Shown piece after piece: positions 4,186 through 49,843 of a DNA stretch of 64,000 bases; positions within the stretch are counted from its first letter, which is position 1, and every line of letters starts with the position of its first letter. This DNA comes from an uncultured Rhizobiaceae bacterium (GTDB lineage: Bacteria; Pseudomonadota; Alphaproteobacteria; Rhizobiales; Rhizobiaceae). The stretch covers positions 287,956-351,955 of the forward strand of contig CATOTF010000001.1 in NCBI GenBank assembly GCA_951813045.1. The letters run 5' to 3'. The position numbers and the translations under genes were made by a program. Below the pieces are notes generated by a model, which saw only the letters and a program-made list of their open reading frames with translations, was not told the origin of the DNA and made no database searches.

Positions 4186-5879
4186 TGCCTTTCTTCCGTG
4201 CTGGAGTTGGCGTTTCCACCATAGTGTTTCTCAATGTATGAGTCCGAAAATTTCCTGCTGCGTTGGTCAAGTTCAATGGCTTTCGCGTCGCGTTTTTCCG
4301 GCGAGCCATATCCACCAGCACCGGGCGTTTCTACAATGATGACATCATCCCGGCTCACTTGCACCTCACCGGGTTTGTCGTCCAGTCGGCGCTGGCCATC
4401 CTTGTCTTTAATAAGAAACCGCCCGGAACCGCCATCCTGCCCACCAAATAACCCCCAGGGCTTGTAACGGAAACGCTCGCCAGCGCCGTTAAATACACAT
4501 TCATGGTCAACAGGTTTTAAAACACGCCGCAGGCCCATGCCGCCGCGATAGGTTCCCGCTCCACCCGAATCCTGAATAAATCCATATTCCACCACCCGAA
4601 TGGGATACTCCTGCTCAATCGACTCAACCGGCAAGTTCGATGTGTTGGTAATACCGACCTGCACACCGTCTTTACCATCTTTGGTTGCTCGGGCCCCCAT
4701 ACCACCGGCAAGTGTTTCAAAATATAGATATGGTTTGCCGGTACGTGGATCGACGCCTGAGAACACCGCGGTGGTGTTGGCTCCGTTTGCCGCGGCAATT
4801 ACACGCTCAGGAATTGCTTTGGAAAGGGCACCAAATACAACATCGATAACCCGCTGGCACGAATGCGCTCTTGCTGCCACCGGCGCAGGGAATACAGAAC
4901 TTAGCAAAGTCCCCGGTTCGCAGATGATCTCAACCACATCCAAAATGCCCTGATTGCTGGGCATGTCGGAATCCAGCGCGCCGATCAGCGCGTAACACGC
5001 GCTCGCCTGAACAGCGTTTAACGTTGTATTGATGTTTCCAAGAACCTGTTTGCTCGTGCCCGTAAAATCAAGACAAATATTGTCGCCCTTCACCGTCAGC
5101 TTCAAACAGATGGGAATGTCCATCGTTCCCATTCCGTCGCCATCCATGAAATCGGTGAACTCGTAGGTACCATCGGGGATTTCAGAGATTGCAGCTTTCA
5201 TGCGAACCGCTGTCCGGGACATTATCTCGTCAAATGCTTCCAAGACATTATCGAGCCCATGGACATCAATGACCTCATTGAACCGACGTGCGCCAAGTTT
5301 GCATGATGCGATTTGAGCGTTGTGATCCCCCTTGCGTTCTTCGGGAACACGAACATTCAGCAGGAGGATGTCCATAATATCCGTCTGTAACGTGCCCTGT
5401 CGGAACAGTTTCACAACCGGTATTCGCAGACCTTCCTGATAGATTTCGGACATCCCCCCAGCCATGGAGCCCGGCACCATGCCACCAATATCTGCGTGAT
5501 GCGCAATGTTGCAGACGAAGGCGACGAGCGCACCTTCAACGAAGATCGGCATGGCATAGTTTATGTCAGGCAGGTGGGTGCCACCAGCAGTGTGAGGATC
5601 ATTGGCAATAAAGATGTCGCCCTCGTGAATATCACCATCAAATTTGTCGAGTACACACCGCATAAGACCACCCATGGATGCAATGTGAATGGGTAATGTG
5701 AGGGCCGCCTGAACAACAAGCTTTCCTTCTCGATCAACGATGGCAATGGAGTGATCTTTACGCTCCTTGATATTGGTCGAATATGAAGACCGCATCAAAG
5801 CGGCAAAACATTCATCGGCAATTGAGCGAAGGCTGTTGGAGATTATTTCAAGGCTGATCGGGTCGAGTTTGGCGGCCAT
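4182..5879 (-). CDS. Hydantoinase B/oxoprolinase family protein
   Basis: 565-aa ORF starting MAAKLDPISLEIISNSLRSIADE with NDPHTAGGTHLPD, hallmarks of the HyuB/OplaH B subunit. Confidence 0.9.
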   Translation of the reverse strand: MAAKLDPISLEIISNSLRSIADECFAALMRSSYSTNIKERKDHSIAIVDREGKLVVQAALTLPIHIASMGGLMRCVLDKFDGDIHEGDIFIANDPHTAGGTHLPDINYAMPIFVEGALVAFVCNIAHHADIGGMVPGSMAGGMSEIYQEGLRIPVVKLFRQGTLQTDIMDILLLNVRVPEERKGDHNAQIASCKLGARRFNEVIDVHGLDNVLEAFDEIMSRTAVRMKAAISEIPDGTYEFTDFMDGDGMGTMDIPICLKLTVKGDNICLDFTGTSKQVLGNINTTLNAVQASACYALIGALDSDMPSNQGILDVVEIICEPGTLLSSVFPAPVAARAHSCQRVIDVVFGALSKAIPERVIAAANGANTTAVFSGVDPRTGKPYLYFETLAGGMGARATKDGKDGVQVGITNTSNLPVESIEQEYPIRVVEYGFIQDSGGAGTYRGGMGLRRVLKPVDHECVFNGAGERFRYKPWGLFGGQDGGSGRFLIKDKDGQRRLDDKPGEVQVSRDDVIIVETPGAGGYGSPEKRDAKAIELDQRSRKFSDSYIEKHYGGNANSSTEERQ

Positions 5880-5881
5880 AA

Positions 5882-8198: not shown

Positions 8199-8690
8199 AT
8201 GAACGACAAAACGCCCAATACACCTAGAGATTTCTCCGATCTTTATGATCGACCTGGATATCTAATCCGGCGTCTTCACCAAATTCATGTGGCGATGTTT
8301 TTAGACGAATGTGCCGAATTTAACCTGACCCCGGTACAATTCGCAGTCCTGACGGTACTGGCGAAAACAGGAACGCTTGATCAGGTGTCTATTGCAAAAA
8401 AGATAGGCGCGGACCGCAATACGGTTGCCGATGTTTTGCGGCGATTGGAGCGACGGGGCCTGATTGAGCGCCCGCCTAGCACAACTGACAAACGCACAAA
8501 ACTTGCAAGAATTACAGCAAATGGCAGTTCATTTGTTGAGGCGGTACAACCCAAAATGATCGAAGCTCAAAAACGTCTGACCGCTCCCATCGACCGGGAG
8601 GAGTACGATACGCTGAACCGGATCCTGCAAAAGCTGCTGCAGGGCACCAAAGAATCCAGCCGCGCACCATTGAGCTATGATTTTGAATAA
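8199..8690 (+). CDS. MarR-family transcriptional regulator
   Basis: 163-aa ORF with a winged HTH (LTPVQFAVLTVLAKTGTLDQVSIAKKIGADRNTVADVLRRLERRGLIER). It is divergent from the hydantoinase operon. Confidence 0.85.
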   Translation: MNDKTPNTPRDFSDLYDRPGYLIRRLHQIHVAMFLDECAEFNLTPVQFAVLTVLAKTGTLDQVSIAKKIGADRNTVADVLRRLERRGLIERPPSTTDKRTKLARITANGSSFVEAVQPKMIEAQKRLTAPIDREEYDTLNRILQKLLQGTKESSRAPLSYDFE

Positions 8691-9399: not shown

Positions 9400-9481
9400 A
9401 GATTTCGGTGCGGACGGTTGACAGCATGCTTGGATGACCTGTCTACTTATTCCTATCCATACCACGTTGCTACGAGATATA

Positions 9482-10411
9482 ATGACGGTGAATGCATCCC
9501 AGTTAATTGAGAAGTGGATATCGCGACAATTACCTGATGCTGCCATGCGATGGTTCCAGCAGCAGCTGGAATCCATTAATGACGATCTACCTTCGCGCAG
9601 TTTTGATATCGCTTTCGGCATGATACCACGCAAGCTCGGTAAGGCCGATTTGCGCCTTGAGGATCAGGATTTTGCCGACGCTGCCGGTCTTGTGGCGGGC
9701 TGGGACCCTTCGCGCTGGAGTGTCGACGTCGCTGCACGCATTCTGTTGCTCATTAAAGTATCAACGGTGACCAACGTGGCGTTTGCCACGCGGTTTAAGG
9801 AAATACATCAAACAGCCGACGTCAGCGAACTGCTGGCCCTATATTATGGTCTGCCGCTCTATCACGATCCGGAAGCATTGGTGGAACAGGCGGCCCTTGG
9901 CTTGCGTACCAATATTCGCGCCGAGTTTGAGGCAATTGCCCATAACAACCCGTTTCCAGCGGCGCATTTTGAGCAAAACCCCTGGAACAACATGGTGCTG
10001 AAAGCCCTGTTCATCGGTGCGATGCTCGAACCGGTCCAGGGCCTTGACGGGCGGGCAAACCCGGAATTGGCGCGTATTCTAAGCGATTATGCCCATGAAC
10101 GCTGGGCCGCAGACAGGGCGGTGTCGCCGGAATTATGGCGCTGTATCGGGCCATTTGCGGAAGGCGATTTGCTGGATGATTTTGAGCGGGTGATCGAAAG
10201 TGGAAATGGCACGGAAAAGAAAGCGGCAGCACTTGCCCTGAAAACGGCCCCTGAATCAAAACGTAAAGATACACTTATGGCTCAATTATCGATGTTTAAC
10301 GACGATATTGAAAATGGTCAGCTAACGTGGTCTTCGATTGCCGACGAAATGTTTGAAAACGCCCTTGCGGTTACCCAAAAACTGAATACCGAAGTGGAAT
10401 TGACCCGATGA
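9482..10411 (+). CDS. eboA: EboA-like protein (assigned mainly by synteny)
   Basis: ORF 9434..10411 with the likely start at ATG 9482 (MTVNASQL). Its stop overlaps the TatD/eboB start (ATGA at 10408). It is co-located with the eboB, C, D, E and F families. Confidence 0.55.
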   Translation: MTVNASQLIEKWISRQLPDAAMRWFQQQLESINDDLPSRSFDIAFGMIPRKLGKADLRLEDQDFADAAGLVAGWDPSRWSVDVAARILLLIKVSTVTNVAFATRFKEIHQTADVSELLALYYGLPLYHDPEALVEQAALGLRTNIRAEFEAIAHNNPFPAAHFEQNPWNNMVLKALFIGAMLEPVQGLDGRANPELARILSDYAHERWAADRAVSPELWRCIGPFAEGDLLDDFERVIESGNGTEKKAAALALKTAPESKRKDTLMAQLSMFNDDIENGQLTWSSIADEMFENALAVTQKLNTEVELTR

Positions 10412-11334
10412 TGCTCATCGATTCTCACGCGCATATGATTTCGCGCACAACAGATGATTATGAAGCTATGGCCGCCGCCGGCGTAGTCGCGGTTATTGAA
10501 CCGGCGTTCTGGATCGGCCAGCCACGTACACAAGTGGGCACCTATATTGATTATCTTTCTGCCATCGTCGGGTTCGAGCGCTTTCGTGCGGGGCAGTTCG
10601 GCATCCGCCATTATTGCACCATCGGGTTGAACTCCAAGGAAGCAAACAATGAGGAACTGGCGGAAGGGGTGATGGAAATCCTGCCAAGGTTTGCGTTGAA
10701 AGAAGGCGTCGTTGCGATTGGCGAGATCGGTTACGATGACCAAACCGAACTGGAAGATAAATATTTCCGCCTTCAAATCGAGCTGGCCAAGGAACTTGAA
10801 CTGCCGGTGATGATACACACGCCCCATCGGGACAAAAAACGGGGCACAACCCGCTCGATGGATGTTTGCGAAGAACACGGTATTGATCCGTCCATGGTGA
10901 TTGTTGACCACAATAATGAAGAGACAGTGCAGGAAGTTCTGGATCGGGGGTATTGGGCGGCATTTTCGATCTACCCCAGTACAAAAATGGGGTCGGCGCG
11001 TATGGTGGAACTGCTCAAGACCTATGGGCCGGAACGCATCATTGTGGATTCAGCCTGCGATTGGGGAATTTCCGAACCACTGGGTGTCGCGAAAACCGCA
11101 CTGCTGGCGGCCCAAGAAGGGATTGATAAAGAAGCTATTCGCCTGATCTGCTATCAAAATGCCCTCGATGCTTATGGTCAAAGCGGGCAGATGAAGGAAG
11201 AAGATTGGCTCAACCCCGACCCGATTGACCAACGCACCGTTTATGAAGGTAATTCGATTTTGCGTGGTCAAAGGGAGCCTGTCGTTGAAGACCCGAAGGA
11301 TAAAAAGAACCTGTCAAACCTGATCATCGAATGA
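10408..11334 (+). CDS. eboB: TatD-family metal-dependent hydrolase, EboB
   Basis: 308-aa ORF with TatD motifs DSHAH, GEIGYD, HTPH and DSACDWG. Confidence 0.85.
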   Translation: MMLIDSHAHMISRTTDDYEAMAAAGVVAVIEPAFWIGQPRTQVGTYIDYLSAIVGFERFRAGQFGIRHYCTIGLNSKEANNEELAEGVMEILPRFALKEGVVAIGEIGYDDQTELEDKYFRLQIELAKELELPVMIHTPHRDKKRGTTRSMDVCEEHGIDPSMVIVDHNNEETVQEVLDRGYWAAFSIYPSTKMGSARMVELLKTYGPERIIVDSACDWGISEPLGVAKTALLAAQEGIDKEAIRLICYQNALDAYGQSGQMKEEDWLNPDPIDQRTVYEGNSILRGQREPVVEDPKDKKNLSNLIIE

Positions 11335-11356: not shown

Positions 11357-11998
11357 TTGAGCGCTTCGGTCAAATTCGGCCTGATATTGCTGTGCGTGGC
11401 TTTATTCGTCGCCGCGCCTTTTTTCTTTTTCGGTGATCAAATCGAGGAATTATTTGTTGGCGAAGGCGCCCTTCAACGGTTGCGCGGTTATGGTGGCTTC
11501 GCCTGGGTGGTGGCCATCGGTTTGTTGATTTCTGACCTTGCTTTGCCAGTTCCCACCACGTCGGTCATGGCGGCGCTTGGCATGATTTACGGCCCGCTGT
11601 TGGGCGGAATAATCGCCGCACTGGGATCGGTGGTCTCCGGATTGGTGGGGTATATTTTATGCCGAATTGTTGGTCGACCGGTTGCCGTCTATCTCAATGG
11701 CACCGCGGGACTGGCAAAGGGTGAAGCGCTTTTTGGCCGCGCAGGTGGGTGGGTCGTGGCCCTCTCGCGCTGGTTGCCCATTATTTCGGAAGTCGTGGCG
11801 TGCGCTGCCGGGCTCTCGAAAATGCGGTTTGCCGTATTTTTTGCCGCTTTGGTCTGCGGTTCAATTCCACTTGGATTTGCCTACGCAAGCCTAGGGTATC
11901 TTGGTGAAGATAGCCCGGTTCTGACCCTTCTGGTCACCGCGATCATGCCCTTTATCTTATGGCTTTTGGTTCGCCCGCTACTCCAACGGCTTAAATAA
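11357..11998 (+). CDS. TVP38/TMEM64 (DedA-related) family membrane protein
   Basis: 213-aa multi-TM ORF with an apparent TTG start. The core LPVPTTSVMAALGMIYGPLLGG...GYILCRIVGRP is typical of the SNARE-associated/TVP38 family. Confidence 0.65.
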   Translation: MSASVKFGLILLCVALFVAAPFFFFGDQIEELFVGEGALQRLRGYGGFAWVVAIGLLISDLALPVPTTSVMAALGMIYGPLLGGIIAALGSVVSGLVGYILCRIVGRPVAVYLNGTAGLAKGEALFGRAGGWVVALSRWLPIISEVVACAAGLSKMRFAVFFAALVCGSIPLGFAYASLGYLGEDSPVLTLLVTAIMPFILWLLVRPLLQRLK

Positions 11999-12116
11999 CC
12001 AATCGAGCTGTCGGCAAACGTTATTGTGAAATTAACCAAATTGGCTTGCCAAGTTTCCTGTTTGCGGCAAGACTTGTCGCAGGTTTGTTGCTCGCGGATG
12101 GGAGGCCGTTTAACAG

Positions 12117-12818
12117 ATGCCGCATGCGGGAACGGTAATTCGTGAATCAATTTCAGTTCAGCTTTATAATGATCTACTGACCGGTATTCAGGTTGGCGAT
12201 TATCCGCCGTTGAGCCCCTTGCCAACCGAGGCATCGCTTGCACATGATTACGGTGTTTCCCGCTCAGTAGTCCGTTCTGCCCTTTCCGTTCTCAAAGAAG
12301 ATGGAATCGTTGTTTCACGCCAGGGTTCAGGCACAATTGTGGCACCGGGTAAAAAGGTTCCGCAGAACAACCGGGCGCTTGAGATCGACCCGGCGGAGTT
12401 GAGGGACTGTTACAAATGCCGGGAATCCATGGAGCCGGATATTGCGGCCTATGCAGCGGCCCATAGAACCGGCAAGCACCTTCGTTATCTCGAACTTCAA
12501 TTGAAGATCATCGCGGATGAACTTGCCAGCGGTATTACCCACACGGGCAATGATGCGGACTTTCGTGTTCGACTGGCGGAAATGTCTGAAAATAGGTTTT
12601 TCGAAACGATTATCAATTCACTTCGACCACATATTTTGATCGGTATGAACTTTGCAAAGTCCCTGTCTCCCATGGACCGCAAGATTCATCAACACGAGTC
12701 ACTTCTGGAGCACCGGGCGATTGCCCAAGCGGTGATTGATCAAGATTGTGAGGGGGCGCGTCGGGCTATGAGTGAACACCTAACGCGCGGTCAACGCCGG
12801 ATATTTGTTGATCAGTAA
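12117..12818 (+). CDS. GntR/FadR-family transcriptional regulator
   Basis: 233-aa ORF with an N-terminal wHTH (LPTEASLAHDYGVSRSVVRSALSVLKEDGIVVSRQGSGTIV) and an all-helical FCD-like C-terminus. Confidence 0.85.
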   Translation: MPHAGTVIRESISVQLYNDLLTGIQVGDYPPLSPLPTEASLAHDYGVSRSVVRSALSVLKEDGIVVSRQGSGTIVAPGKKVPQNNRALEIDPAELRDCYKCRESMEPDIAAYAAAHRTGKHLRYLELQLKIIADELASGITHTGNDADFRVRLAEMSENRFFETIINSLRPHILIGMNFAKSLSPMDRKIHQHESLLEHRAIAQAVIDQDCEGARRAMSEHLTRGQRRIFVDQ

Positions 12819-12933
12819 TGGAGACCTTTAACAAGTTTCCATTCCCGCCGGACGTTTTTGGAACTCACGGTGAACAATAGGAATATGCCACTATCCAAAT
12901 GCTTGATATCGCCCAGTTTCAGGCGATTTTCAA

Positions 12934-12953
12934 ATTTGTTTTAAAAAACAAAT
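12934..12953. promoter_or_regulatory. Near-perfect palindrome ATTTGTTTT-AA-AAAACAAAT, candidate GntR-type operator
   Basis: Read directly from the sequence. It has 9-bp arms and a 2-nt spacer and contains the GT...AC core typical of GntR-family operators. It lies 70 nt upstream of the PQQ-dehydrogenase start and downstream of the GntR gene. Confidence 0.3.
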
Positions 12954-13025
12954 AGGAGAGTCATAAGGCCTGCGTTAGCCTTTCGTGGTATAGCTATTTC
13001 TACAACTTTTGGGAGGAATTACCGA

Positions 13026-14336
13026 ATGAGTATATCAAAACCCTTACTTGGGCTCGCGCTGACGACAGGTATCGCGGCTTCTGGAATTACGGCTGCAAAC
13101 GCAGAAATGAATATCAAGCTGGAACCGTATGTAACAGCTGTGAATGCACCGCTTGCGATGGTTCAACCGGCTGGTGATGATAGAAAATTTGTCATCGAAC
13201 AGCACGGTCGCATTAAAATTATCGACAAAGATGGCAAACTGTTACCAACGCCGTTTCTTGATATCCGCAACAAGATTGTCCCTCTGTTTCACGATTTCGA
13301 CGAACGCGGTCTTCTTGGCCTGACTTTCCATCCGGACTTTGCAAACAACGGCAAATTTTATGTGGCTTATTCAACTCAGTTAAACGTTCAGGGTGATCTT
13401 GGAAAAATGTTCTGGTGGGATCACAACAACACCGTTGCAGAATATACGGTTTCAGCCGACGATCCAAATGTCGCCAATATCAGTTCCGGACGTATTATCA
13501 CCGAAATGGACTGGCCACAGTTTAACCATAACGGCCACTGGATCGACTTTGGTAAAGACGGCATGTTGTACATCTCCTCAGGCGATGGCGGTTATGCCAA
13601 CGACTGGGGTATTGGTCACAATGTGACAGAGGGTAATGGACAAGATATGTCGGTTCTCCTGGGCAAAATTCTGCGGATTGATGTCAATAAATCAGAAGGT
13701 GGCAAAAACTACGGAATTCCTGCTGACAACCCATTTGTCGGCAATTCAGATGCTCGTGGCGAAATCTTTGCCTACGGCCTGCGCAACCCCTGGCGCTGTT
13801 CTTTTGATATGAAGGGCGCCAACGAGTTGTTTTGTGCTGATGTGCAGCAAAACAGTTTTGAGGAAGTCGACATTATCGCTAAAGGCGACAATCTTGGCTG
13901 GCGCAAAACCGAAGGTGGCCGGTGCTTTGATTACCAAAAGCCTGATAATCATCCAGCAACCTGCGACAAAACCGGTATCGTTGATCCCATCATAACTTAT
14001 AAAAACTGCTCGGCTCAGCCGAATGGTTGTGCAGGTATTTCAATTACCGGTGGGTATGTTTATCGCGGCGCACACGCTGCCTGGGATGGCAAGTATATCT
14101 TCGGTGATTGGAGCAAGAGCTTCGGCGCCATGGACGGTCAGATATTCTTTGGTAGCAAAGGCGCCGATGGCGATTGGGAAATGGAAGTGGCGAAGGTCAC
14201 CAACATGGACGGTAATATTCCCTACATTCTGGCGTTTGCCCAGGATTCAGCCGGTGAAGTCTATGCTTTGACGTCTATAACAACGGGACCAAATGGTACG
14301 TTGGACACGATCTATAAGGTTGTACCCGCCAACTAG
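13026..14336 (+). CDS. PQQ-dependent sugar (glucose/sorbosone) dehydrogenase, periplasmic
   Basis: 436-aa ORF with a signal peptide (LALTTGIAASGITAANA). Beta-propeller motifs GLLGLTFHPDF, HNGHWIDFGKDGMLYISSGDGG and YGLRNPWRCSFD are present. Confidence 0.8.
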   Translation: MSISKPLLGLALTTGIAASGITAANAEMNIKLEPYVTAVNAPLAMVQPAGDDRKFVIEQHGRIKIIDKDGKLLPTPFLDIRNKIVPLFHDFDERGLLGLTFHPDFANNGKFYVAYSTQLNVQGDLGKMFWWDHNNTVAEYTVSADDPNVANISSGRIITEMDWPQFNHNGHWIDFGKDGMLYISSGDGGYANDWGIGHNVTEGNGQDMSVLLGKILRIDVNKSEGGKNYGIPADNPFVGNSDARGEIFAYGLRNPWRCSFDMKGANELFCADVQQNSFEEVDIIAKGDNLGWRKTEGGRCFDYQKPDNHPATCDKTGIVDPIITYKNCSAQPNGCAGISITGGYVYRGAHAAWDGKYIFGDWSKSFGAMDGQIFFGSKGADGDWEMEVAKVTNMDGNIPYILAFAQDSAGEVYALTSITTGPNGTLDTIYKVVPAN

Positions 14337-14496
14337 AACCCAACAGGAATGGTGCCGCTTGCCACGCTTGCGGCACCATTTTCGATTACCGAAAAATTTG
14401 GAAGAACCTGCAGGTTGTGCCAGATTAGGTCATCAAATGGTCATGACCTTGTTCCGAAATCACGATGTAATTTTATCGAATGTGAGCACAGAACTA

Positions 14497-15210
14497 ATGA
14501 AGTTTATCAATGCCAGCGCCCTGATTTCCATGTCGCTACTGGGTGTTCTTTATCCGGTTCAGTCATCAGCGCAGGACACTTATCTTGGAGAAAAGCTATT
14601 CAAGAAATGCAAGGCATGTCACGCGGTTGGCGAAGGGGCGAAACATCGCATTGGCCCGCAACTCAACGGTTTGGGCGGGCGTAAAGCCGGCACAGTTGAA
14701 GGTTTCGACTATTCTGACGGCATGAAGGCAGCTGGTGAAAACGGGTTGGTCTGGGACAAGAAGACCCTGGACAAGTTTCTGATCGAACCTGATGCGATGA
14801 TCGAAGACACTGCAATGGCTTTCTCCGGTCTGGAGAAAGCTGAGAACCGGACAGATTTGATCGCTTATCTGCTGACCCTTGCCCCCCCGGCCGCCAAAAA
14901 TAGTGGTGAAGTCGCTGCAAAAAAGGCCGTTGTTTCCGCGCCACCGGAATTTACGGAAGCTTATTTATCGGACCCGGCACATGTGGCGACGGGTAAAGAA
15001 CTATGGTTTGGGCAATGCACCCATTGCCACGGGTTCAAAGCTTATCCGGGAAAAGCCCCCAAATTGAAGCCGGAGAACTATACGCCCGACTTCGTCTATA
15101 AACGGGTCGCCAAAGGTTTCAAGAAAATGCCGGCATGGGAGGACGTATTCAGTCAAGACGAGATGAAAGCAATTGTTGCTTATGTGCAAAGCAATAGTTT
15201 TTCTCCGTAG
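14497..15210 (+). CDS. Dihaem c-type cytochrome, periplasmic
   Basis: The track ORF 14293..15210 is over-extended. The plausible start is ATG 14497 (MKFINASALISMSLLGVLYPVQSSA, a signal peptide). It has two CxxCH motifs (CKACH, CTHCH). Confidence 0.8.
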   Translation: MKFINASALISMSLLGVLYPVQSSAQDTYLGEKLFKKCKACHAVGEGAKHRIGPQLNGLGGRKAGTVEGFDYSDGMKAAGENGLVWDKKTLDKFLIEPDAMIEDTAMAFSGLEKAENRTDLIAYLLTLAPPAAKNSGEVAAKKAVVSAPPEFTEAYLSDPAHVATGKELWFGQCTHCHGFKAYPGKAPKLKPENYTPDFVYKRVAKGFKKMPAWEDVFSQDEMKAIVAYVQSNSFSP

Positions 15211-15222
15211 GAGGATTACAGT

Positions 15223-15582
15223 ATGAGAATTTTAAATGCTGTTCTTTGCCTCATGATGATCCTGTTCATTGTTGTGCAGTTCAATGATCCTGATGGCCCG
15301 TTCTGGGCGGTGATATACGTGGTGCCTGCCTTGTGGGCAGGACTGATCGCCATTAAATCAGCGCATATTGTGGGCCGAATTGCATTTTCGATTTTGAGTG
15401 CGTGTGTCGTCGGTGGCTTGGTAATGACCGTCTTTTACTGGCCCAGAACACCGGGCTTTTGGAAACAGGAAGTCTGGTGGGAAACGGAAACGGCCCGTGA
15501 GGGAATGGGCATTATGATTGCGACAATGGTATTGTTGGTAGCGATGTTTACCGTTTGGCGTGCCCGTCAACAATCGATTTGA
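15223..15582 (+). CDS. Small 4-TM membrane protein (possibly TMEM220-like)
   Basis: 119-aa hydrophobic ORF with an NDPDGPFW motif. An RBS-like GGAGGA lies 8 nt upstream. The family assignment is from memory only. Confidence 0.45.
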   Translation: MRILNAVLCLMMILFIVVQFNDPDGPFWAVIYVVPALWAGLIAIKSAHIVGRIAFSILSACVVGGLVMTVFYWPRTPGFWKQEVWWETETAREGMGIMIATMVLLVAMFTVWRARQQSI

Positions 15583-15638: not shown

Positions 15639-16835
15639 ATGATGAGTAAGAACATTGATACCCCGGTGTGGTCTGAAACACTGTTGCAACGCTTTGAAGT
15701 GCCGTTCGAGTTTCCGGTATGTTTTACGGAAAATCTCTTCGCCCTCCAAAACCGGACGCTGGTGGATGTTCTTTGTCGCTTGGAAAGTTCCAAACGCCAC
15801 AAGGTTCTGTTTCTTGTTGACGATGGAGTCGCCGCTGCCCGTTCAGACCTGATTACGCAAATAAAGAACTATTGCGAACATCACGGTGAGAGCATCGAAT
15901 TAATTGCTGAACCTATTCCTGTACCCGGCGGTGAGAAGATTAAGGCCGAGCTGCAATATGTCGAGCAGATGCAAAAAGCGCTCTACGATTATCACGTTGA
16001 TCGTCATTCCTACGTGATCGCCATTGGCGGCGGTGCTGTGCTGGATGCTGTTGGACTTGTCGCTGCTACCGCCCATCGTGGGGTACGCCATATTCGAATC
16101 CCGACTACGGTACTTTCGCAAAACGATTCCGGCGTTGGTGTAAAGAACGGGGCAAATCTCTTTGGTACGAAAAATTATGTCGGCACATTTGCGCCACCTT
16201 TTGCCGTATTGAACGACCTTGATTTCGTTATGGGGCTTGGTGATCGCGACAAGATTGCCGGCATGGCGGAAGCCGTAAAAGTCGCGCTGATCCGCGATGG
16301 TGAATTTTTCAAATGGCTGGAAAAGCACGCCGACGACCTTGCGACGTTCAAAAAGCCACCAATGGCGTACATGATCCAAAGATGCGCCGAACTGCACATG
16401 AAGCAAATCGGTCAGGGGGGCGACCCTTTTGAGACCGGCAGCGCACGCCCTCTTGATTACGGCCATTGGTCCGCTCACAAGCTGGAGAGCCTCACCCGTT
16501 ACCATGTCCGTCACGGCGAAGCGGTGGCCATCGGCATTGCACTTGATGCCCGCTATTCGGTGCTTAGTGGCCTACTGGAACCGGGAGAAGAAGACCGTAT
16601 CTGTTTTCTGCTGGAACACCTGGGTTTCAAACTCTGGCATTCCGCCCTTGAGATGCGGGCGGTTGACGGTGAACTGGAACTGATGAAAGGTTTACGGGAC
16701 TTCCGCGAACACCTTGGCGGGGAACTGACGATTACCCTATTGTCAGGCATTGGCGTGGGTATTGAAGTGCACGAAATTGACGATGGTAACGTGATGGAAT
16801 CCATCAATTGGCTGAAAAGCCGACAGGAGTATTGA
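15639..16835 (+). CDS. eboD: 3-dehydroquinate-synthase-like sugar phosphate cyclase, EboD
   Basis: The track ORF starts at 15555, overlapping the previous gene. The likely start is ATG 15639 (MMSKNIDTP). DHQS-family motifs GGGAVLDAVG and RIPTTVLSQNDSGVGVKNG are present. Confidence 0.85.
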   Translation: MMSKNIDTPVWSETLLQRFEVPFEFPVCFTENLFALQNRTLVDVLCRLESSKRHKVLFLVDDGVAAARSDLITQIKNYCEHHGESIELIAEPIPVPGGEKIKAELQYVEQMQKALYDYHVDRHSYVIAIGGGAVLDAVGLVAATAHRGVRHIRIPTTVLSQNDSGVGVKNGANLFGTKNYVGTFAPPFAVLNDLDFVMGLGDRDKIAGMAEAVKVALIRDGEFFKWLEKHADDLATFKKPPMAYMIQRCAELHMKQIGQGGDPFETGSARPLDYGHWSAHKLESLTRYHVRHGEAVAIGIALDARYSVLSGLLEPGEEDRICFLLEHLGFKLWHSALEMRAVDGELELMKGLRDFREHLGGELTITLLSGIGVGIEVHEIDDGNVMESINWLKSRQEY

Positions 16836-18043
16836 TGGAACTTTCAGGTGGCCGCAATCTGGGGCAATTAACATATTGCACCAATATCCATGCCGGTGAG
16901 ACCTGGGCCGATATCATGGAAGGTATGCGTCGCCATTTACCGGATATAAAACGCGATGTCAGTCCCGATGCACCCCTTGGTGTTGGGCTTCGCCTGTCGG
17001 CCGCCGCCGCAGAAACCCTTCGCGATGGGGCGATATTCGCTGACTTTGAGAAATTTCTCAAAGACGGGGATTATTACATCTTCACGCTGAACGGGTTTCC
17101 CTACGGCAATTTTCACGGTTCACGTGTCAAGGAAGGGGCGTATAAACCCGATTGGACCCAGCAATCGCGGTTGGATTATACAAATACAATGGCAGATCAT
17201 CTCGCAAGATGGTTACCCGTTGGAATGGAGGGGTCAGTCAGCACCGTGCCCGGTACGTTCAAGCCATGGGCTCAAGGGGACGATGGTGATGAAGTTGTTG
17301 CTAAAATCACCGAAAATCTAATCCGCCATGTAGCCCATTTGGTGAAACTGCGGGAAGAAACGGGAAAACTGATCAACCTGGCGCTGGAACCGGAACCGTT
17401 TTGCCTGATCGAAACGATTGAGGAAACGGTACACCTTTTTGAGGACCATCTTTACAGTGCCGCCGCCGCCGCAAGATTGTCCGAACTCACCGGTCTTCCG
17501 GAAACTGCGGCGTCTGCTGCGCTGCGTGAACACCTTGGTGTCTGTTACGATGTATGCCATGCGGCGGTGGAGTTTGAAGACCCGCAATCCAGTCTGGACG
17601 CCTTGCGGAACGCCGGCATCAAAATTTCAAAACTGCAACTCAGTTCTGCCGTGCGTATTCCAAGTGTGGACGGGAATACTGCAAATTTGCTCAAGCCATT
17701 GGATGAGCCGGTTTATATGCATCAGGTGATCGAGAGCCGAAATGGCGACCTCACCCGCCATGCGGATGTGCCAATTGCGATTAAAACTATTGATCAGGCC
17801 CATGGCGCGGAGTGGCGCATCCATTTCCATGTCCCCATTTTTTTGGAAGAGATGGAACATCTGGCCACCACTCAGCAATTTTTGAAAGACGTGTTGGCCA
17901 TTCACGCCAAAAACCCGGTTACCAGGCAATTGGAAGTTGAAACTTATACCTGGGACGTTTTGCCTGAAAACCAGCGAGCGGATGGTCTCAGTGCGGCGAT
18001 TGCAAGAGAGCTAAACTGGGTGCGAAGCGAACTGGCTGTATGA
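16835..18043 (+). CDS. eboE: Xylose-isomerase-like TIM-barrel protein, EboE
   Basis: ATG 16835 overlaps the eboD stop (TGATG), with AGGAG 6 nt upstream. The product starts MELSGGRNLGQLTYCTNIHAGETW. The protein is about 400 aa and sits between eboD and eboC. Confidence 0.75.
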   Translation: MELSGGRNLGQLTYCTNIHAGETWADIMEGMRRHLPDIKRDVSPDAPLGVGLRLSAAAAETLRDGAIFADFEKFLKDGDYYIFTLNGFPYGNFHGSRVKEGAYKPDWTQQSRLDYTNTMADHLARWLPVGMEGSVSTVPGTFKPWAQGDDGDEVVAKITENLIRHVAHLVKLREETGKLINLALEPEPFCLIETIEETVHLFEDHLYSAAAAARLSELTGLPETAASAALREHLGVCYDVCHAAVEFEDPQSSLDALRNAGIKISKLQLSSAVRIPSVDGNTANLLKPLDEPVYMHQVIESRNGDLTRHADVPIAIKTIDQAHGAEWRIHFHVPIFLEEMEHLATTQQFLKDVLAIHAKNPVTRQLEVETYTWDVLPENQRADGLSAAIARELNWVRSELAV

Positions 18044-18921
18044 ACGGAATGACATTCAACACTGCGTTGAAACTCGGTCGTGTCTCAAACCTGCCGACGG
18101 TCTGGACAAATTGTCTGGCAGGTATCGCGCTTACGGGCGGCGTGATTGTCGATATTCGAACCCCATTTATCATCTTCGCCTTGTCGCTGTTTTACATCGG
18201 CGGCATGTTTCTAAACGACGCCTGTGACGCGGAAATTGATGCAATCGAACGCCCGGAACGACCCATCCCCGCAGGACTGGTCACCGCGAAAACGGTATTT
18301 AACTGGGCGGCGGGCATGATGGGCGCTTCCGTGTTGCTGCTGTTTCTGATCGGCATATTGCCCGAAAATGGAACCGGTATCTGGCCCGCCATTTGCGGCG
18401 TTGTACTCGCAGGGTTGATCGTTCTCTATAACCGCCACCATAAAAATAATCCGCTCAGCCCGCTTATCATGGGCCTTTGCCGGGTGCTGGTTTATCTGAC
18501 GGCGGGCGTGTGTTTTGCAGCCGCACTTGGCGTTCCCTTGTTGATCGGGGCGTTACTGCTGGTGAGTTATCTCATCGGCCTTACTTACGTTGCCAAACAG
18601 GAAAATTTCGGCAACGTGGAAAACCTGTGGCCACTGGCGTTTATCGCCGCCCCGGTTCTCTATGGGTTCTACCTCGTATCGCACGAAACGTCGGTCTTGC
18701 CCTTCTGGCTCATATTTATTGTTTGGGTGGGCATAGCCCTCAACTTCATTCGCCGTCGGGGGCCGGGGGATATTCCCCGTGCCGTTGTCAGTCTCATTGC
18801 GGGCATATCATTACTGGATGCGATTATGATCGCGAGCACCGGGAACATAATGTGGGCGGTTTTAGCAGTTGGATTATTTGCACTCACCCTGTTTCTTCAA
18901 AAGTTCATTTCGGGAACGTAA
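18040..18921 (+). CDS. eboC: UbiA-family prenyltransferase, EboC
   Basis: 293-aa polytopic ORF with an Asp-rich motif NDACDAEIDAIERPERPIP typical of UbiA prenyltransferases. It has an ATGA overlap with eboE. Confidence 0.85.
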   Translation: MNGMTFNTALKLGRVSNLPTVWTNCLAGIALTGGVIVDIRTPFIIFALSLFYIGGMFLNDACDAEIDAIERPERPIPAGLVTAKTVFNWAAGMMGASVLLLFLIGILPENGTGIWPAICGVVLAGLIVLYNRHHKNNPLSPLIMGLCRVLVYLTAGVCFAAALGVPLLIGALLLVSYLIGLTYVAKQENFGNVENLWPLAFIAAPVLYGFYLVSHETSVLPFWLIFIVWVGIALNFIRRRGPGDIPRAVVSLIAGISLLDAIMIASTGNIMWAVLAVGLFALTLFLQKFISGT

Positions 18922-18946: not shown

Positions 18947-20341
18947 TCAGTTTGCTTTTCGCCCGAACACATGATCCAGCACCAATTGCTTGAAGTCCAC
19001 AGCGGCCACCGGTCCTTCCCCCAACAGGTCTTCGCGTGAGCTTATCACCATTGGCCCGTCATCAGGATCATCCGTCAACCTCCCGTGGGAACCTTTGACG
19101 AGTTTGGTGTCATTCAGCGAGATTACATCCATCAGGTTTCGAAACCCGAGTTTACGTTGCGCAACTTTCAGCCCGGCCTTCAGCTTTGGAAATCTAAGGG
19201 CCGGATCGAAGAATAATTCAACTGGGTCATAACCCGGCTTGCGATGAATATCGACGGTAGTCGCATAATCCGGCGCTTTTTCGTCGTCGAGCCAATAATA
19301 ATAACTGAACCACCGGTCAGCACTGGAAATTGCAACCAGTTCACCGGAGCGGTCGTGGGCAAGTCCAGCGGCGGCTTTGCCTTCGTAATCCAACACCGTT
19401 TCAACACCATCAAGTTGTTCCACGAGTTTTTTTACTTCCAACAACCGATCCGGGGATTTGACGTAGATATGTGCCAGCTGATGGTCAGCAAGCGCAAAGG
19501 CATCTGACGCGCCCGCATCAAAAACGTCACGTCCGAGCTCTTCGCGCGTAGCAATCAGACCCGCTTCACGCAACGCGCGGTTAATATGAATTGCGTCGGT
19601 CACTTCTGTAATGCCGTATTCTGATACCACGATCACATCGCGACCTTCCTTGTCGGCCGCTTCAATTAATTCTCCGCAAAGGTCATCGATCTCCTTGAGG
19701 TCAGCGATAAGTCGAGGATGGGAAAGATCGGGGCCAAGCCTTTGGAGGTTGTAATCAAGGTGCGGAAGATACGTCATTGCAAGTGTCGGTTTGCGGGTGT
19801 CGATGACATGTTGAGTGGCTTTGGCAATCCAGGAGCTGGATTCAATGTCAGCAACGGGGCCCCAGAATTTGAACAGGGGAAACTTCCCAAATTTTGCATC
19901 AAGCTCATCGCGCATCCCTTGGGGATAAGCGTAATGGTCGGGAATCTTCAATCCATTGGCGGGGTACATCGGGCGCGGGGTCGCACTCCAGTCGGCGGTC
20001 GCATACATATTGTACCACCAGAACATCTTGGCGCAGGTGAAATCCGGGTCGCGTTTCTTACCCGCGTCCCAGATTTTTTCGCCATGCACGAGTTGGTTAG
20101 GTTGGCGCCAGAGCAGAACTTCCGACAGATCGCGGAAATACCAGCCGTTCGCGACAGCACCGTGATTTGACGGCAAAGTACCCGTAACCAATGTGGATTG
20201 AACCGTACACGTCACTGCGGGAACGACTGTGGACAATGGCCGGGTACCACCGCGCTCGGCAAGTTTTTTCAAATGGGGCGTGTGCTCGCCAATCAACGAT
20301 GGGGAAAGCCCAACGACAAGGATAACAAGAGTAGGTTGCAT
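18947..20341 (-). CDS. eboF: Nucleotide pyrophosphatase/phosphodiesterase (alkaline-phosphatase superfamily), EboF
   Basis: The track ORF extends to 20461. The likely start is ATG 20341 (MQPTLVILVVGLSP..., the typical beta-strand start of the AP superfamily). It is convergent with eboC. Confidence 0.75.
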   Translation of the reverse strand: MQPTLVILVVGLSPSLIGEHTPHLKKLAERGGTRPLSTVVPAVTCTVQSTLVTGTLPSNHGAVANGWYFRDLSEVLLWRQPNQLVHGEKIWDAGKKRDPDFTCAKMFWWYNMYATADWSATPRPMYPANGLKIPDHYAYPQGMRDELDAKFGKFPLFKFWGPVADIESSSWIAKATQHVIDTRKPTLAMTYLPHLDYNLQRLGPDLSHPRLIADLKEIDDLCGELIEAADKEGRDVIVVSEYGITEVTDAIHINRALREAGLIATREELGRDVFDAGASDAFALADHQLAHIYVKSPDRLLEVKKLVEQLDGVETVLDYEGKAAAGLAHDRSGELVAISSADRWFSYYYWLDDEKAPDYATTVDIHRKPGYDPVELFFDPALRFPKLKAGLKVAQRKLGFRNLMDVISLNDTKLVKGSHGRLTDDPDDGPMVISSREDLLGEGPVAAVDFKQLVLDHVFGRKAN

Positions 20342-20929
20342 AAAAATTGGCTGCCAAATTATCACCCGTCGGGGCTGGTCAACGGAAATGATACAGGGGG
20401 AACGCGCATTGGCAAATGTGTTTTTGAAATCCCCGGGATTCAAATAGATAATTAACATCAATAGTCAAATGGTCACTCACTTATGATAGTGTAAAGTCCA
20501 GCTAAGTGAATGGCGACTTCTAAAATATTGGCCCAACAAAGTCTCGTAAGTCCCAAGGTCGGTAGTGGGCAAGCTGCGGTAAAAACTCGGGTAGAGATGT
20601 TATTCTCACTGGCCTGAGCCTGACATTCCTGCTGTTCGTTTCATGCTGTGCCCGGGCCTATTTTACCGACCTGTCAGGAGCGATTATCGCCCGGGGTGCT
20701 GGCGGTTCCCGGCAAGCTCAAAACCGCCAACACCCGGATTGTGGAATAGTATCGGAAAGCAGGATTGCTGATGAGGTTGGGTCGGTAGATTTGGGTCCAG
20801 GTAATCGCACGCCCTTGCCACTTACCTGGACCACCAAGACATCGCTGTTATCCACCGAAGAATAAATGTGTTGCTTAAAAATATCTATTAGTTATCATTG
20901 AAATGTCAACCAATAGAAATTGATATTTT

Positions 20930-37812: not shown

Positions 37813-37949
37813 TAGATGGCGGTTCAACTTCACGATATCGACCCCAAACAAGCGTTCAAGGCCAGCCGAGGGCTGGAAGGAATCAATGATGCTATCGGGC
37901 TCGATACTCATGACCGCGACACCTTCTTTGAGCAGCGCCGTTCAAGTAA

Positions 37950-49734: not shown

Positions 49735-49843
49735 TGTGAATCCCGGAGACAAAATGACCACAGAAATGGTTGGGTAATCTGACCGTCGCGGAGTAAAATT
49801 CCGCACTCTGACACCTTGTGCTTGTGAGTATTAGGTGGGGAAG

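What the first reader, a model, noticed from the sequence alone, without database searches (positions are those of the whole stretch)
11357..15582. Periplasmic redox module (PQQ sugar dehydrogenase plus dihaem cytochrome c) with TVP38, GntR and a small membrane protein nested inside the ebo cluster
**Seen in sequence.** The insert between the ebo blocks encodes five proteins:
- a TVP38/DedA-related membrane protein
- a GntR/FadR regulator
- a signal-peptide-bearing PQQ-dependent glucose/sorbosone-type dehydrogenase
- a signal-peptide-bearing cytochrome c with two CxxCH sites
- a 4-TM protein

All are on the same strand as the ebo genes, with short gaps. A near-perfect palindrome, ATTTGTTTT-AA-AAAACAAAT (12934-12953), sits between the GntR gene and the dehydrogenase gene.

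**Established knowledge.** Soluble PQQ dehydrogenases oxidise sugars or cyclitols in the periplasm and commonly pass electrons to c-type cytochromes. DedA/TVP38 proteins have been implicated in lipid-carrier flipping or recycling.

**Inference.** The module could oxidise or recycle a periplasm-exposed, cyclitol-headed prenyl lipid made by EboC/D/E. That would fit the proposed 'traffic to the periplasm' role of ebo. I know of no description of such a coupling.
Basis: partly seen in the sequence, partly recalled or inferred. Interest (0 to 1): 0.65.

Follow-up and report, generated by a model that had tools for sequence, protein, structure and literature searches.

The report
Periplasmic redox add-on of ebo clusters
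The five genes sitting inside this ebo (thallusin-type metabolite) gene cluster are not a chance insert: an exported propeller dehydrogenase, its own cytochrome c, a small membrane protein and a lipid-flippase-like protein travel with ebo genes across many proteobacteria, which gives testable candidates for the pathway's unexplained oxidation and export steps.

Summary

The coupling to ebo is real and conserved. Orthologues of the dehydrogenase (61-90% identity) are always followed by a cytochrome c and nearly always lie near a TMEM220 gene. In alpha-, beta- and gammaproteobacteria the trio sits among ebo genes in at least 10 different gene orders. The only ebo-less clade is nested among ebo-linked ones.

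The VTT/DedA gene follows eboB in 21 loci and is fused to EboD in three genomes. Other ebo clusters carry different oxidases at the same place: a second GSDH plus cytochrome c pair, an 8-bladed PQQ dehydrogenase, or a LodA-like oxidase.

The GntR gene and the first haem domain are specific to one clade. The operator ATTTGTT-N6-AACAAAT is perfectly conserved upstream of the dehydrogenase in exactly the GntR-bearing loci.

'PQQ sugar dehydrogenase' is not established. The closest solved structure is the Hedgehog-interacting protein propeller, and two PQQ-binding arginines are missing.

A 2026 preprint links ebo to thallusin and leaves its oxidative steps without an enzyme. My best reading is a periplasmic oxidation and translocation module, coupled to the respiratory chain, for the prenylated ebo intermediate. 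The exact reaction is unproven.

The parts
9434..10411 (+). eboA
   Evidence: NF035937 E 7.5e-73; NF035938, 159.8 bits against a cut-off of 50
10408..11334 (+). eboB (TatD-fold hydrolase)
   Evidence: PF01026 E 2e-17. It is 68-91% identical in all related loci.
11357..11998 (+). VTT/TVP38/DedA-family membrane protein, the presumed lipid translocator
   Evidence: PF09335 E 2e-19. Weak UptA/DedA hits lie below the cut-offs. It directly follows eboB in 21 loci and is fused to EboD in L117, L121 and L122.
12117..12818 (+). GntR/FCD (FadR-subfamily) regulator, specific to one clade
   Evidence: PF00392 and PF07729. A homologue lies next to the dehydrogenase gene in L112, L113, L063 and L048 only.
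12934..12953 (.). Operator palindrome ATTTGTT-N6-AACAAAT, 73 nt upstream of the dehydrogenase start codon
   Evidence: Perfect half-sites with a variable spacer in the window, L112, L113, L063 and L048. There is no other perfect match in 1.24 Mb. About 0.04 matches (up to one mismatch allowed) are expected per window.
13026..14336 (+). Exported six-bladed GSDH-fold (HHIP-like) propeller, the presumed dehydrogenase ('SDH1')
   Evidence: PF07995 E 1e-35. AlphaFold2 model: pLDDT 83.8, pTM 0.86. Foldseek: HHIP 2e-29, PQQ sGDH family about 1e-19. His168 and Arg253/Asn254 are invariant in the 34 aligned orthologues.
14348..14380 (+). Terminator-like hairpin with a T-run between the dehydrogenase and cytochrome genes
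   Evidence: -25.5 kcal/mol, z -5.1. An equivalent hairpin with a different sequence was found in all six other loci checked.
14497..15210 (+). Dihaem cytochrome c: an N-terminal c550/CycA-like domain fused to the module-specific C-terminal haem domain
   Evidence: PF00034 and PF13442. NF043008 E 4e-30 for the N-terminal domain, below its cut-off. The C-terminal domain is found after the dehydrogenase in 29 of 31 loci at 52-73% identity. The N-terminal domain is found only in the window's GntR clade and in L002 and L022.
15223..15582 (+). TMEM220-family 4-TM protein
   Evidence: PF15071 E 8.5e-13. Present in 24 of 31 dehydrogenase-anchored loci. Invariant Q-x-NDPD and RE motifs, with no conserved Cys or His.
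15639..16835 (+). eboD (sugar-phosphate cyclase); the ORF is open from 15555
   Evidence: PF01761 and PF24621. PRK06203, 577 bits. The start was chosen by comparison with the 398-aa product in L112.
16808..18043 (+). eboE
   Evidence: NF035939, 455.8 bits against a cut-off of 250
18040..18921 (+). eboC (UbiA prenyltransferase)
   Evidence: PF01040. NF035940 E 3e-35, below its cut-off.
18947..20461 (-). eboF (phosphodiesterase/AlkP family), convergent with eboC
   Evidence: PF01663 E 3e-61

Best explanation
The insert is a conserved accessory module of proteobacterial ebo clusters. A 2026 preprint reports that ebo genes make the prenylated hydroxyquinoline meroterpenoids saccharoquinoline and thallusin.

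**Shown here**
- An exported GSDH-fold propeller, a dedicated monohaem cytochrome c and a TMEM220 membrane protein form a three-gene unit that co-localises with ebo genes.
- A VTT/DedA-family protein is a further ebo component, encoded either after eboB or fused to EboD.
- A GntR/FCD regulator and its operator ATTTGTT-N6-AACAAAT were added in the window's clade.

**Inferred**
- EboC prenylates the cyclitol/aspartate-derived head group at the inner membrane.
- The VTT/DedA protein moves the lipid-anchored intermediate to the periplasmic leaflet.
- The propeller dehydrogenates the cyclitol-derived or hydroxyquinoline ring, either by CH-OH oxidation or aromatisation, or by catechol-to-quinone oxidation ahead of ring opening.
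- It hands electrons to its own haem domain. In this clade they pass on through the fused c550-like domain to the respiratory chain.
- TMEM220 acts as the membrane partner, presenting substrate or docking the complex.
- GntR represses the dehydrogenase promoter until a ligand, probably a carboxylate, binds its FCD domain.
- A hairpin after the dehydrogenase gene sets the expression ratio or separates transcription units.
For: **Dehydrogenase-anchored genome scan**
- 31 loci carry orthologues at 61-76% identity. 16 of them carry ebo genes beside the orthologue.
- 29 of 31 have the C-terminal haem domain immediately downstream, at 52-73% identity. The other two loci are cut by contig ends.
- 24 of 31 have TMEM220.

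**eboB-anchored metagenome scan**
- Of 26 loci with at least 5 ebo genes, 12 carry a GSDH-family gene and 10 carry part of the module. In the subset with EboB at 79% identity or more, 9 of 13 do.

**Rearrangement and taxonomic breadth**
- At least 10 different gene orders keep the association, in Rhodospirillales, Rhodobacterales (Phaeobacter marinintestinus), Afifella, Devosia, Ca. Levibacter, Burkholderiales and Granulosicoccaceae.
- In a neighbour-joining tree the ebo-less loci form one Burkholderiales clade nested inside ebo-linked clades, so linkage looks ancestral.
- Nine contig lengths recur in the dehydrogenase and EboE hit lists.

**VTT as an ebo component**
- VTT-EboD fusion proteins occur in Salipiger, Sedimentitalea and Hoeflea.

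**Other oxidases at the same place**
- A second GSDH clade with its own cytochrome c lies between eboA and eboB in 7 loci.
- An 8-bladed PQQ dehydrogenase preceded by a 4-TM protein follows eboB in Salipiger.
- A LodA-like quinoprotein oxidase follows eboB in Sedimentitalea.

**Operator and active site**
- The operator co-occurs exactly with GntR.
- The equivalents of the catalytic His144 and of Arg228/Asn229 of sGDH are invariant in the 34 aligned orthologues.

**Literature**
- No Ebo protein is an obvious oxidoreductase, and the oxidative saccharoquinoline-to-thallusin step has no enzyme.
- A fused cytochrome c-GSDH protein is among 91 gene clusters found only in thallusin-producing Maribacter.
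- The EDB cluster of P. fluorescens NZI7 is six ebo genes plus three extra genes, some exported.
Against: - Several proteobacterial ebo clusters have no such gene within reach: L039, L052, L056, L060, L071, L118 and Halomonas L119.
- Bacteroidota make thallusin with a plain eboABCDEF operon.
- One Burkholderiales clade keeps the trio with no ebo genes within 10 kb.
- The second GSDH-cytochrome pair also occurs in non-ebo contexts.
- Cofactor binding is uncertain. The protein is nearer to non-enzymatic HHIP than to proven PQQ enzymes, and it lacks Arg406 and Arg408.
- The substrate, the direction of electron flow and the topology are all inferred.
- The terminator-like hairpin suggests that the dehydrogenase gene may be a separate transcription unit from the cytochrome, TMEM220 and eboDEC genes.
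Confidence: 0.55

Rival explanations
1. The module serves use of the product rather than its synthesis. It would process an ebo-type, metal-chelating metabolite in the periplasm, for example by reductive iron release from a ferric chelate, recycling or detoxification, with the cytochrome donating electrons rather than accepting them.
For: - In the ebo-less Burkholderiales clade the trio lies next to a convergent TonB-dependent receptor in 7 loci.
- The preprint notes that thallusin chelates metals.
- The module can exist without ebo nearby.
- The direction of electron flow is unknown.
Against: - The receptor is a generic BtuB-like one below all curated cut-offs. It is convergent with the trio, so not co-transcribed, and it is limited to one clade, so it may be inherited synteny.
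- No receptor accompanies the ebo-linked modules.
- The fused c550/CycA-like domain fits electron delivery to the respiratory chain.
- The VTT-EboD fusion points to export of a biosynthetic intermediate.
Confidence: 0.2
2. The association has no functional meaning. An ordinary periplasmic aldose dehydrogenase and its cytochrome happened to land in an ancestral ebo cluster and have since been carried along by vertical descent and by transfer of the cluster as a block.
For: - The annotation sources call the protein a PQQ-dependent sugar dehydrogenase.
- GSDH-cytochrome pairs occur in unrelated contexts.
- Some ebo clusters lack the module.
- The hairpin suggests separate transcription.
Against: - Linkage survives at least 10 rearrangements across three classes, with EboA down to about 45% identity.
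- Three or four unrelated oxidases have been recruited independently at the same position.
- VTT is fused to EboD.
- The propeller family is unusually conserved, with 70% mean column identity.
Confidence: 0.1
3. The propeller is not an enzyme. It would be an HHIP-like binding protein or chaperone that receives the lipophilic metabolite in the periplasm, much as HHIP binds a lipid-modified morphogen, and the cytochrome would serve another role.
For: - The closest solved structure by both sequence and fold is HHIP: E 1e-38 by sequence, Foldseek 2e-29.
- The C-terminal half matches only HHIP.
- The arginines that hold the PQQ carboxylates are absent.
Against: - A cytochrome c gene follows in every complete locus.
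- The equivalents of the catalytic His and the Arg/Asn pair, which HHIP has lost (GLHDPGR in place of GLRNPWR), are invariant in the 34 aligned orthologues.
- The non-orthologous replacements are true oxidoreductases.
Confidence: 0.1

Closest known systems
EDB ('edible') cluster of Pseudomonas fluorescens NZI7 (Burlinson 2013; summarised in PMC12904256 and PMC6282210)
   Same: It is a proteobacterial ebo cluster described as six ebo homologues plus three additional genes of unknown function, some with signal peptides. The commonest architecture found here, eboA-eboB-propeller-cytochrome-TMEM220-eboD-eboE-eboC with eboF alongside, also has exactly nine genes.
   Different: I could not read the primary papers or fetch that genome, so the identity of the three extra genes is my inference. 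The window additionally has VTT, GntR with its operator, and a dihaem cytochrome fusion. No function has been proposed for the extra EDB genes.
Soluble PQQ glucose/aldose dehydrogenases (sGDH 1C9U, Asd/YliI 2G8S, PaeAsd 3A9G)
   Same: It shares the six-bladed GSDH fold (PF07995; Foldseek E about 1e-19, TM 0.6-0.68) and a periplasmic location. The equivalents of the catalytic His144 and of Arg228/Asn229 are conserved.
   Different: Identity is only 18-23%. It falls far below the TIGR03606 cut-off (54 bits against 434.55). Arg406 and Arg408 are absent and Gln246 is replaced by Val. It has an obligatory cytochrome c and TMEM220 as partners, and its context is ebo rather than sugar metabolism.
Hedgehog-interacting protein (HHIP) propeller (7PGM, 3HO3, 2WFX)
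   Same: It is the best match by sequence (E 1e-38) and by fold (E 2e-29, 27% identity, TM 0.70). The C-terminal blades resemble only HHIP.
   Different: HHIP is a eukaryotic, non-enzymatic receptor with EGF domains. It has lost the Arg/Asn pair that is kept here, and it has no cytochrome partner.
Quinoprotein dehydrogenase and dedicated cytochrome c pairs (methanol dehydrogenase MxaF with cytochrome cL; PedE/PedH with PedF)
   Same: The logic is the same: a periplasmic propeller dehydrogenase encoded next to a private class I cytochrome c that relays electrons to the respiratory chain. The cytochrome here gives weak hits to PedF and MoxG.
   Different: Those enzymes are 8-bladed PF01011 proteins and are not homologous to this propeller. 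That type does, however, replace the propeller in the Salipiger ebo cluster.
DedA/UptA undecaprenyl-phosphate translocators
   Same: It has the VTT/DedA domain (PF09335). The weak best NCBIfam hits are UptA and DedA. The inferred role is to move a polyprenyl-type lipid across the inner membrane.
   Different: The scores are far below the equivalog cut-offs (27 bits against 250). The substrate here would be a prenylated secondary metabolite, and the fusion to a sugar-phosphate cyclase (EboD) is not a known DedA architecture.
Scytonemin late steps in Nostoc (ScyE/ScyF with ebo; PMC6282210)
   Same: An ebo-dependent route delivers an aromatic intermediate to the periplasm, where an exported protein carries out the final oxidation.
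   Different: The periplasmic proteins and the product are different, and no cytochrome c, TMEM220 or VTT genes are involved.

Membership tests
PQQ-dependent soluble glucose/sorbosone dehydrogenase (sGDH/Asd type) | Six-bladed GSDH beta-propeller fold | tested here: met
   PF07995 E 1e-35, 124 bits against a cut-off of 25. AlphaFold2 model pLDDT 83.8. Foldseek hits to 3A9G, 1C9U and 2G8S at E about 1e-19.
PQQ-dependent soluble glucose/sorbosone dehydrogenase (sGDH/Asd type) | Catalytic base His144 and the PQQ-contacting Arg228/Asn229 (1C9U numbering) | tested here: met
   His168 and Arg253/Asn254 align to them and are invariant in 34 orthologues.
PQQ-dependent soluble glucose/sorbosone dehydrogenase (sGDH/Asd type) | Arg406 and Arg408, which bind the PQQ carboxylates, and Gln246 | tested here: not met
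   By motif alignment the positions read Pro399, Ile401 and Val273. No Arg is present in that strand in any of the three ebo-associated GSDH clades, as in HHIP. The alignment of the C-terminal blades is of low confidence.
PQQ-dependent soluble glucose/sorbosone dehydrogenase (sGDH/Asd type) | Reaches the curated family score (NCBIfam TIGR03606) | tested here: not met
   54 bits against a cut-off of 434.55.
PQQ-dependent soluble glucose/sorbosone dehydrogenase (sGDH/Asd type) | Binds PQQ and Ca2+ and oxidises aldoses | not testable with these tools
   No biochemistry was possible. No pqq genes were seen in the annotated parts of the window.
ebo cluster (eboA-F) | All six gene families clustered together | tested here: met
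   EboA domain model 159.8 bits against 50. EboE 455.8 against 250. EboD PRK06203 577 against 333. TatD, UbiA and Phosphodiest Pfam hits. EboC reaches only 122 bits against 250 on NF035940.
GntR family, FadR (FCD) subfamily | N-terminal GntR winged helix plus C-terminal FCD domain, with a palindromic GT-N-AC type operator | tested here: met
   PF00392 58.7 bits and PF07729 65.2 bits. The conserved inverted repeat ATTTGTT-N6-AACAAAT is found only in GntR-bearing loci. Binding itself was not tested.
DedA/VTT (TVP38) family | VTT domain within a polytopic membrane protein | tested here: met
   PF09335 70.6 bits against 33.9. Multiple hydrophobic segments. The UptA equivalog cut-off is not reached, at 26.9 against 250.
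TMEM220 (PF15071) | Pfam gathering score and four transmembrane helices | tested here: met
   49.3 bits against 27. Four hydrophobic segments. No function is known for the family.
Class I c-type cytochrome | Signal peptide, CxxCH haem site and a distal Met, per domain | tested here: met
   Two domains with CKACH and CTHCH. PF00034 51.6 bits and PF13442 59.6 bits. QC.HCHG and MP.W are invariant in 45 sequences.

The most novel reading that the evidence does not exclude
The propeller-cytochrome pair, and the unrelated oxidases that replace it in other genomes, would be the missing oxidative enzyme of the ebo/thallusin pathway. It would act in the periplasm on a lipid-anchored intermediate delivered by a DedA/VTT translocator. 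The reaction would be either aromatisation of the cyclitol-derived ring or oxidation of saccharoquinoline towards ring-opened thallusin, with the electrons fed into the respiratory chain. That would be a natural-product maturation step coupled to respiration, and the first DedA-family protein assigned to export of a secondary metabolite.
Probability: 0.2. Interest if true: 0.8.

Novelty: new variant of a known kind. Interest (0 to 1): 0.6.

Why it matters
The ebo genes are among the most widespread conserved gene clusters in bacteria whose chemistry is still poorly understood. A 2026 preprint ties them to thallusin, a picomolar morphogen for the seaweed Ulva. That work leaves two gaps: no oxidoreductase for the required oxidations, and no explanation for the earlier link between ebo and transport to the periplasm.

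This locus and its relatives offer concrete, testable genes for both gaps. The candidates for oxidation are an exported dehydrogenase with its private cytochrome, or other quinoprotein oxidases at the same position. The candidate for transport is a DedA/VTT protein that in some genomes is physically fused to the first pathway enzyme.

The locus also offers a defined regulator-operator pair for finding the pathway's inducer. Finally, it flags a large, highly conserved HHIP-like bacterial propeller family whose routine annotation as 'PQQ sugar dehydrogenase' is probably too confident.

Tried and rejected
- **My own error.** The first tblastn with the cytochrome used a wrong-frame start (14499) and suggested the cytochrome was not conserved. 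This was corrected.
- **Plasmid search with the dehydrogenase.** It found only relatives below 45% identity and no orthologues.
- **Exact-sequence look-ups.** Look-ups of the window's dehydrogenase and of P0325 found nothing on record, so the source organism remains unidentified. The closest relative is an ENA metagenome contig at 87% identity.
- **Primary papers not held.** The EDB papers (PMC3660686, PMC9328163) and the EboD paper (PMC11567786) are not in the library, so I could not confirm the identity of the three extra EDB genes.
- **Tranquillimonas.** Searching with a Rhodobacterales EboE did not bring up Tranquillimonas alkanivorans, the confirmed proteobacterial thallusin producer, so I could not check whether it has the module.
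- **Global hhalign to sGDH.** It misaligned the catalytic-His region. I used motif anchors and MAFFT instead.
- **TonB-dependent receptor.** The receptor next to ebo-less modules could not be assigned a substrate; it gives only generic hits.
- **TMEM220 literature.** A search found nothing about bacterial members.
- **Simple promoter/terminator scan.** It found no more sites than shuffled sequence gives, and it missed the hairpin after the dehydrogenase gene.

Full report
**1. What is in the window**

ORF listing and profile searches give one co-directional block:

| Gene | Coordinates |
|---|---|
| eboA | 9434-10411 |
| eboB (TatD) | 10408-11334 |
| VTT/TVP38/DedA protein | 11357-11998 |
| GntR+FCD regulator | 12117-12818 |
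| GSDH-family propeller | 13026-14336 |
| cytochrome c | 14497-15210 |
| TMEM220-family protein | 15223-15582 |
| eboD | about 15639-16835 |
| eboE | 16808-18043 |
| eboC | 18040-18921 |
| eboF (minus strand, convergent) | 18947-20461 |

There are four corrections:
- The cytochrome gene starts at ATG 14497. It encodes 237 aa with a signal peptide and the haem sites CKACH and CTHCH.
- eboD probably starts at 15639.
- Three of the gaps are 118-207 nt rather than short.
- The gap after the propeller gene holds a strong hairpin followed by a T-run at 14348-14380 (-25.5 kcal/mol, z -5.1).

**2. Is the coupling to ebo conserved?**

*Scan anchored on the propeller.* A scan of one genome per species returned 31 loci with orthologues at 61-76% identity from alpha-, beta- and gammaproteobacteria.
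- Ebo genes lie beside the orthologue in 16 of them.
- A cytochrome gene matching the C-terminal haem domain of the window's protein (52-73% identity) follows the propeller gene in 29 of 31. The other two loci end at the contig edge.
- A TMEM220 gene is present in 24 of 31.

*Scan anchored on eboB.* A metagenome scan returned 80 loci. Among the 26 that hold at least five ebo genes, 12 carry a GSDH-family gene and 10 carry part of the trio. In the subset closest to the window (EboB at 79% identity or more), 9 of 13 do.

*Individual contexts.*
- The closest relative, L112 (87% identity), has the window's exact gene order.
- Phaeobacter marinintestinus (L113) has all five accessory genes with ebo, but thoroughly rearranged.
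- A 5.2-Mb genome (L120) has the trio beside eboDEC.
- Halomonas shantousis (L119) has a plain ebo cluster.

At least ten different gene orders keep the association.

*Tree.* In a neighbour-joining tree of 45 propeller sequences, all but one of the ebo-less loci it includes form one Burkholderiales clade nested within ebo-linked clades. Linkage is therefore the ancestral state.

*Contig lengths.* Nine contig lengths recur in the hit lists for the propeller and for EboE, which fits both genes lying on the same contigs.

**3. Independent lines pointing the same way**

- The VTT gene directly follows eboB in 21 loci. It is fused to the N-terminus of EboD in Salipiger sp. CCB-MM3, Sedimentitalea sp. 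and Hoeflea sp.. This is a classical fusion argument for a shared function.
- Other ebo clusters carry different oxidases at the same position:
  - A second GSDH clade (30-32% identity) with its own cytochrome c lies between eboA and eboB in seven loci.
  - A third GSDH clade lies beside eboA or eboF.
  - A true 8-bladed PQQ dehydrogenase (PF01011, E 2e-190), preceded by a small 4-TM protein, follows eboB in Salipiger.
  - A LodA-like quinoprotein oxidase follows eboB in Sedimentitalea.
- The supplement of the thallusin preprint lists 91 gene clusters present in all eight producing Maribacter strains and absent from the non-producer. One of them is a fused cytochrome c-GSDH protein, unlinked to ebo and not discussed by the authors.

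**4. The regulator**

The GntR gene occurs next to the propeller gene only in one clade: the window, L112, L113, L063 and L048. In exactly these five loci a perfect ATTTGTT-N6-AACAAAT lies upstream of the propeller start codon, 73-90 nt in four of them and about 230 nt in L048. The half-sites are invariant and the spacer varies. No other perfect match exists in 1.24 Mb of window plus loci.

This is a phylogenetic footprint of an operator that was acquired together with its regulator. Binding itself is inferred.

**5. What the propeller is**

- The family is very conserved, with 70% mean column identity and a long invariant motif, WPQFNHNGHW...GDGGYANDWGIGHN.
- By sequence, the closest solved structure is the Hedgehog-interacting protein propeller (E 1e-38). 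Proven PQQ enzymes score 1e-15 to 1e-10. The C-terminal half matches only HHIP.
- An AlphaFold2 model (pLDDT 83.8, pTM 0.86) gives the same order by fold: HHIP 2e-29, PQQ enzymes about 1e-19.
- I aligned it to the sGDH sequence, which I verified against 1C9U. The catalytic His144 and Arg228/Asn229 are conserved; HHIP has lost the latter pair. Gln246 is replaced by Val, and the strand that carries Arg406 and Arg408 has no arginine.
- It scores 54 bits against the NCBIfam cut-off of 434.55.

It is therefore a GSDH-fold protein with a plausible active site, but PQQ dependence is not established.

**6. The cytochrome and TMEM220**

The conserved partner is a monohaem protein of about 115-150 aa. 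In the window's clade, and in L002 and L022, it is fused behind a c550/CycA-like domain. That fits a relay from the private haem to a general electron carrier.

TMEM220 has four hydrophobic segments and invariant Q-x-NDPD and RE motifs, but no conserved Cys or His. It is unlikely to hold a redox cofactor. No function is known for the family.

**7. Mechanism**

From the literature:
- ebo genes are reported to make saccharoquinoline and thallusin.
- EboD forms a cyclitol, aspartate is incorporated, and EboC farnesylates a trihydroxyquinaldate.
- The oxidative ring opening has no assigned enzyme.
- Earlier work tied ebo to delivery of an intermediate to the periplasm.

None of EboA-F is an obvious oxidoreductase; this is my reading of the annotations quoted there.

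My inference runs in four steps:
1. The prenylated intermediate is moved across the inner membrane by the VTT/DedA protein.
2. It is oxidised on the periplasmic side by the propeller.
3. Electrons pass to the cytochrome and on to the respiratory chain.
4. TMEM220 serves as the membrane partner.

Whether the reaction is CH-OH oxidation or aromatisation of the cyclitol-derived ring, or catechol-to-quinone oxidation on the way to ring opening, cannot be decided here.

**8. Limits**

- The module is neither universal in ebo clusters nor exclusive to them.
- Bacteroidota make thallusin without it in cis.
- The ebo-less clade sits beside a TonB-dependent receptor. This keeps a role in uptake or utilisation alive.
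- A hairpin with a T-run follows the propeller gene in every locus checked, with a different sequence each time. The propeller gene may therefore be transcribed apart from the cytochrome, TMEM220 and eboDEC genes, or be attenuated.

**9. Novelty**

The P. fluorescens NZI7 EDB cluster has been described as six ebo genes plus three genes of unknown function, some exported. This is very probably the same nine-gene architecture. The 2016 survey noted inserted genes but did not analyse them. The thallusin preprint does not mention a dehydrogenase, a cytochrome or DedA.

What appears to be new:
- the breadth of the association;
- the trio as a unit;
- the VTT-EboD fusion;
- the non-orthologous oxidases at the same position;
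- the operator;
- the HHIP-like nature of the propeller.

All of the components belong to known families.

Noticed in passing
window 14348-14380; L112 8506-8667; L113 11312-11403; L001 11297-11440; L005 11294-11449; L006 11234-11301; L018 11297-11381: A strong GC-rich hairpin followed by a T-run sits immediately after the propeller stop codon in every locus checked. The sequence differs each time but the structure is the same. It looks like a conserved terminator or attenuator between the dehydrogenase and cytochrome genes.
   Followed up: partly
L087 7768-9779; L078, L093, L097, L100, L101, L102; L006 16854-18179; L063 7812-9179; L032, L050, L051, L055: Two further GSDH-family clades occur inside ebo clusters. 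One (30-32% identity) lies between eboA and eboB with its own cytochrome c. The other (35% identity) lies beside eboA or eboF without a cytochrome. An orthologue of the first also occurs away from ebo, next to groES/EL.
   Followed up: partly
L117 (Salipiger sp. CCB-MM3 plasmid NZ_CP014598.1) 9852-11753 and 17104-19592; L121 8154-10004; L122 474-2357: There are natural fusion proteins of a VTT/DedA domain with EboD (616-633 aa) in three genera. In Salipiger an exported 8-bladed PQQ dehydrogenase, preceded by an unannotated 4-TM protein, follows eboB.
   Followed up: partly
L121 15751-18773 (Sedimentitalea sp.): A LodA-like quinoprotein oxidase (PF17990/PF18417) and a LodB-like flavoprotein lie directly after eboB, in place of the propeller-cytochrome pair.
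   Followed up: no
L010, L012, L013, L016, L017, L019, L026: In soil Burkholderiales MAGs the propeller-cytochrome-TMEM220 trio has no ebo genes within 10 kb. It is followed by a convergent BtuB-like TonB-dependent receptor. One MAG (L009 and L013) has two copies of the trio.
   Followed up: partly
L022 9082-9672; L002 9162-9875; L007, L031, L038, L064, L113 8360-8881: A NUDIX gene that looks like an isopentenyl-diphosphate isomerase recurs in or next to these ebo clusters. That would fit prenyl-donor supply.
   Followed up: no
window 10408-11334 and all related loci: EboB is strikingly conserved, at 68-91% identity across classes, whereas EboA in the same loci is 36-65% identical.
   Followed up: no
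window 37024-38684, 47320-48177, 49835-52116, 42879-45566: Relaxase and TraA-type helicase fragments, an IS3-family transposase, an IS21 istAB pair (87% identical to one on a Sulfitobacter plasmid) and an autotransporter lie downstream. The window may come from a plasmid, a chromid or a mobile island of a marine alphaproteobacterium.
   Followed up: partly
L120 7526-8332: A SAM-dependent methyltransferase gene is inserted between the cytochrome and TMEM220 genes of an otherwise typical module.
   Followed up: no
L048 4864-6890 and L036 from 6270: About 2 kb of extra DNA separates the GntR gene from the operator and propeller gene. The DNA after GntR is near-identical in L048 and L036. It may be an insertion element, and the GntR match there is only partial.
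   Followed up: no
window 3160-7948 and 8199-8690: Upstream of the cluster lie a luciferase-like monooxygenase, hydantoinase/oxoprolinase A and B subunits on the minus strand, and a MarR regulator. None of them recurs in the related loci.
   Followed up: no
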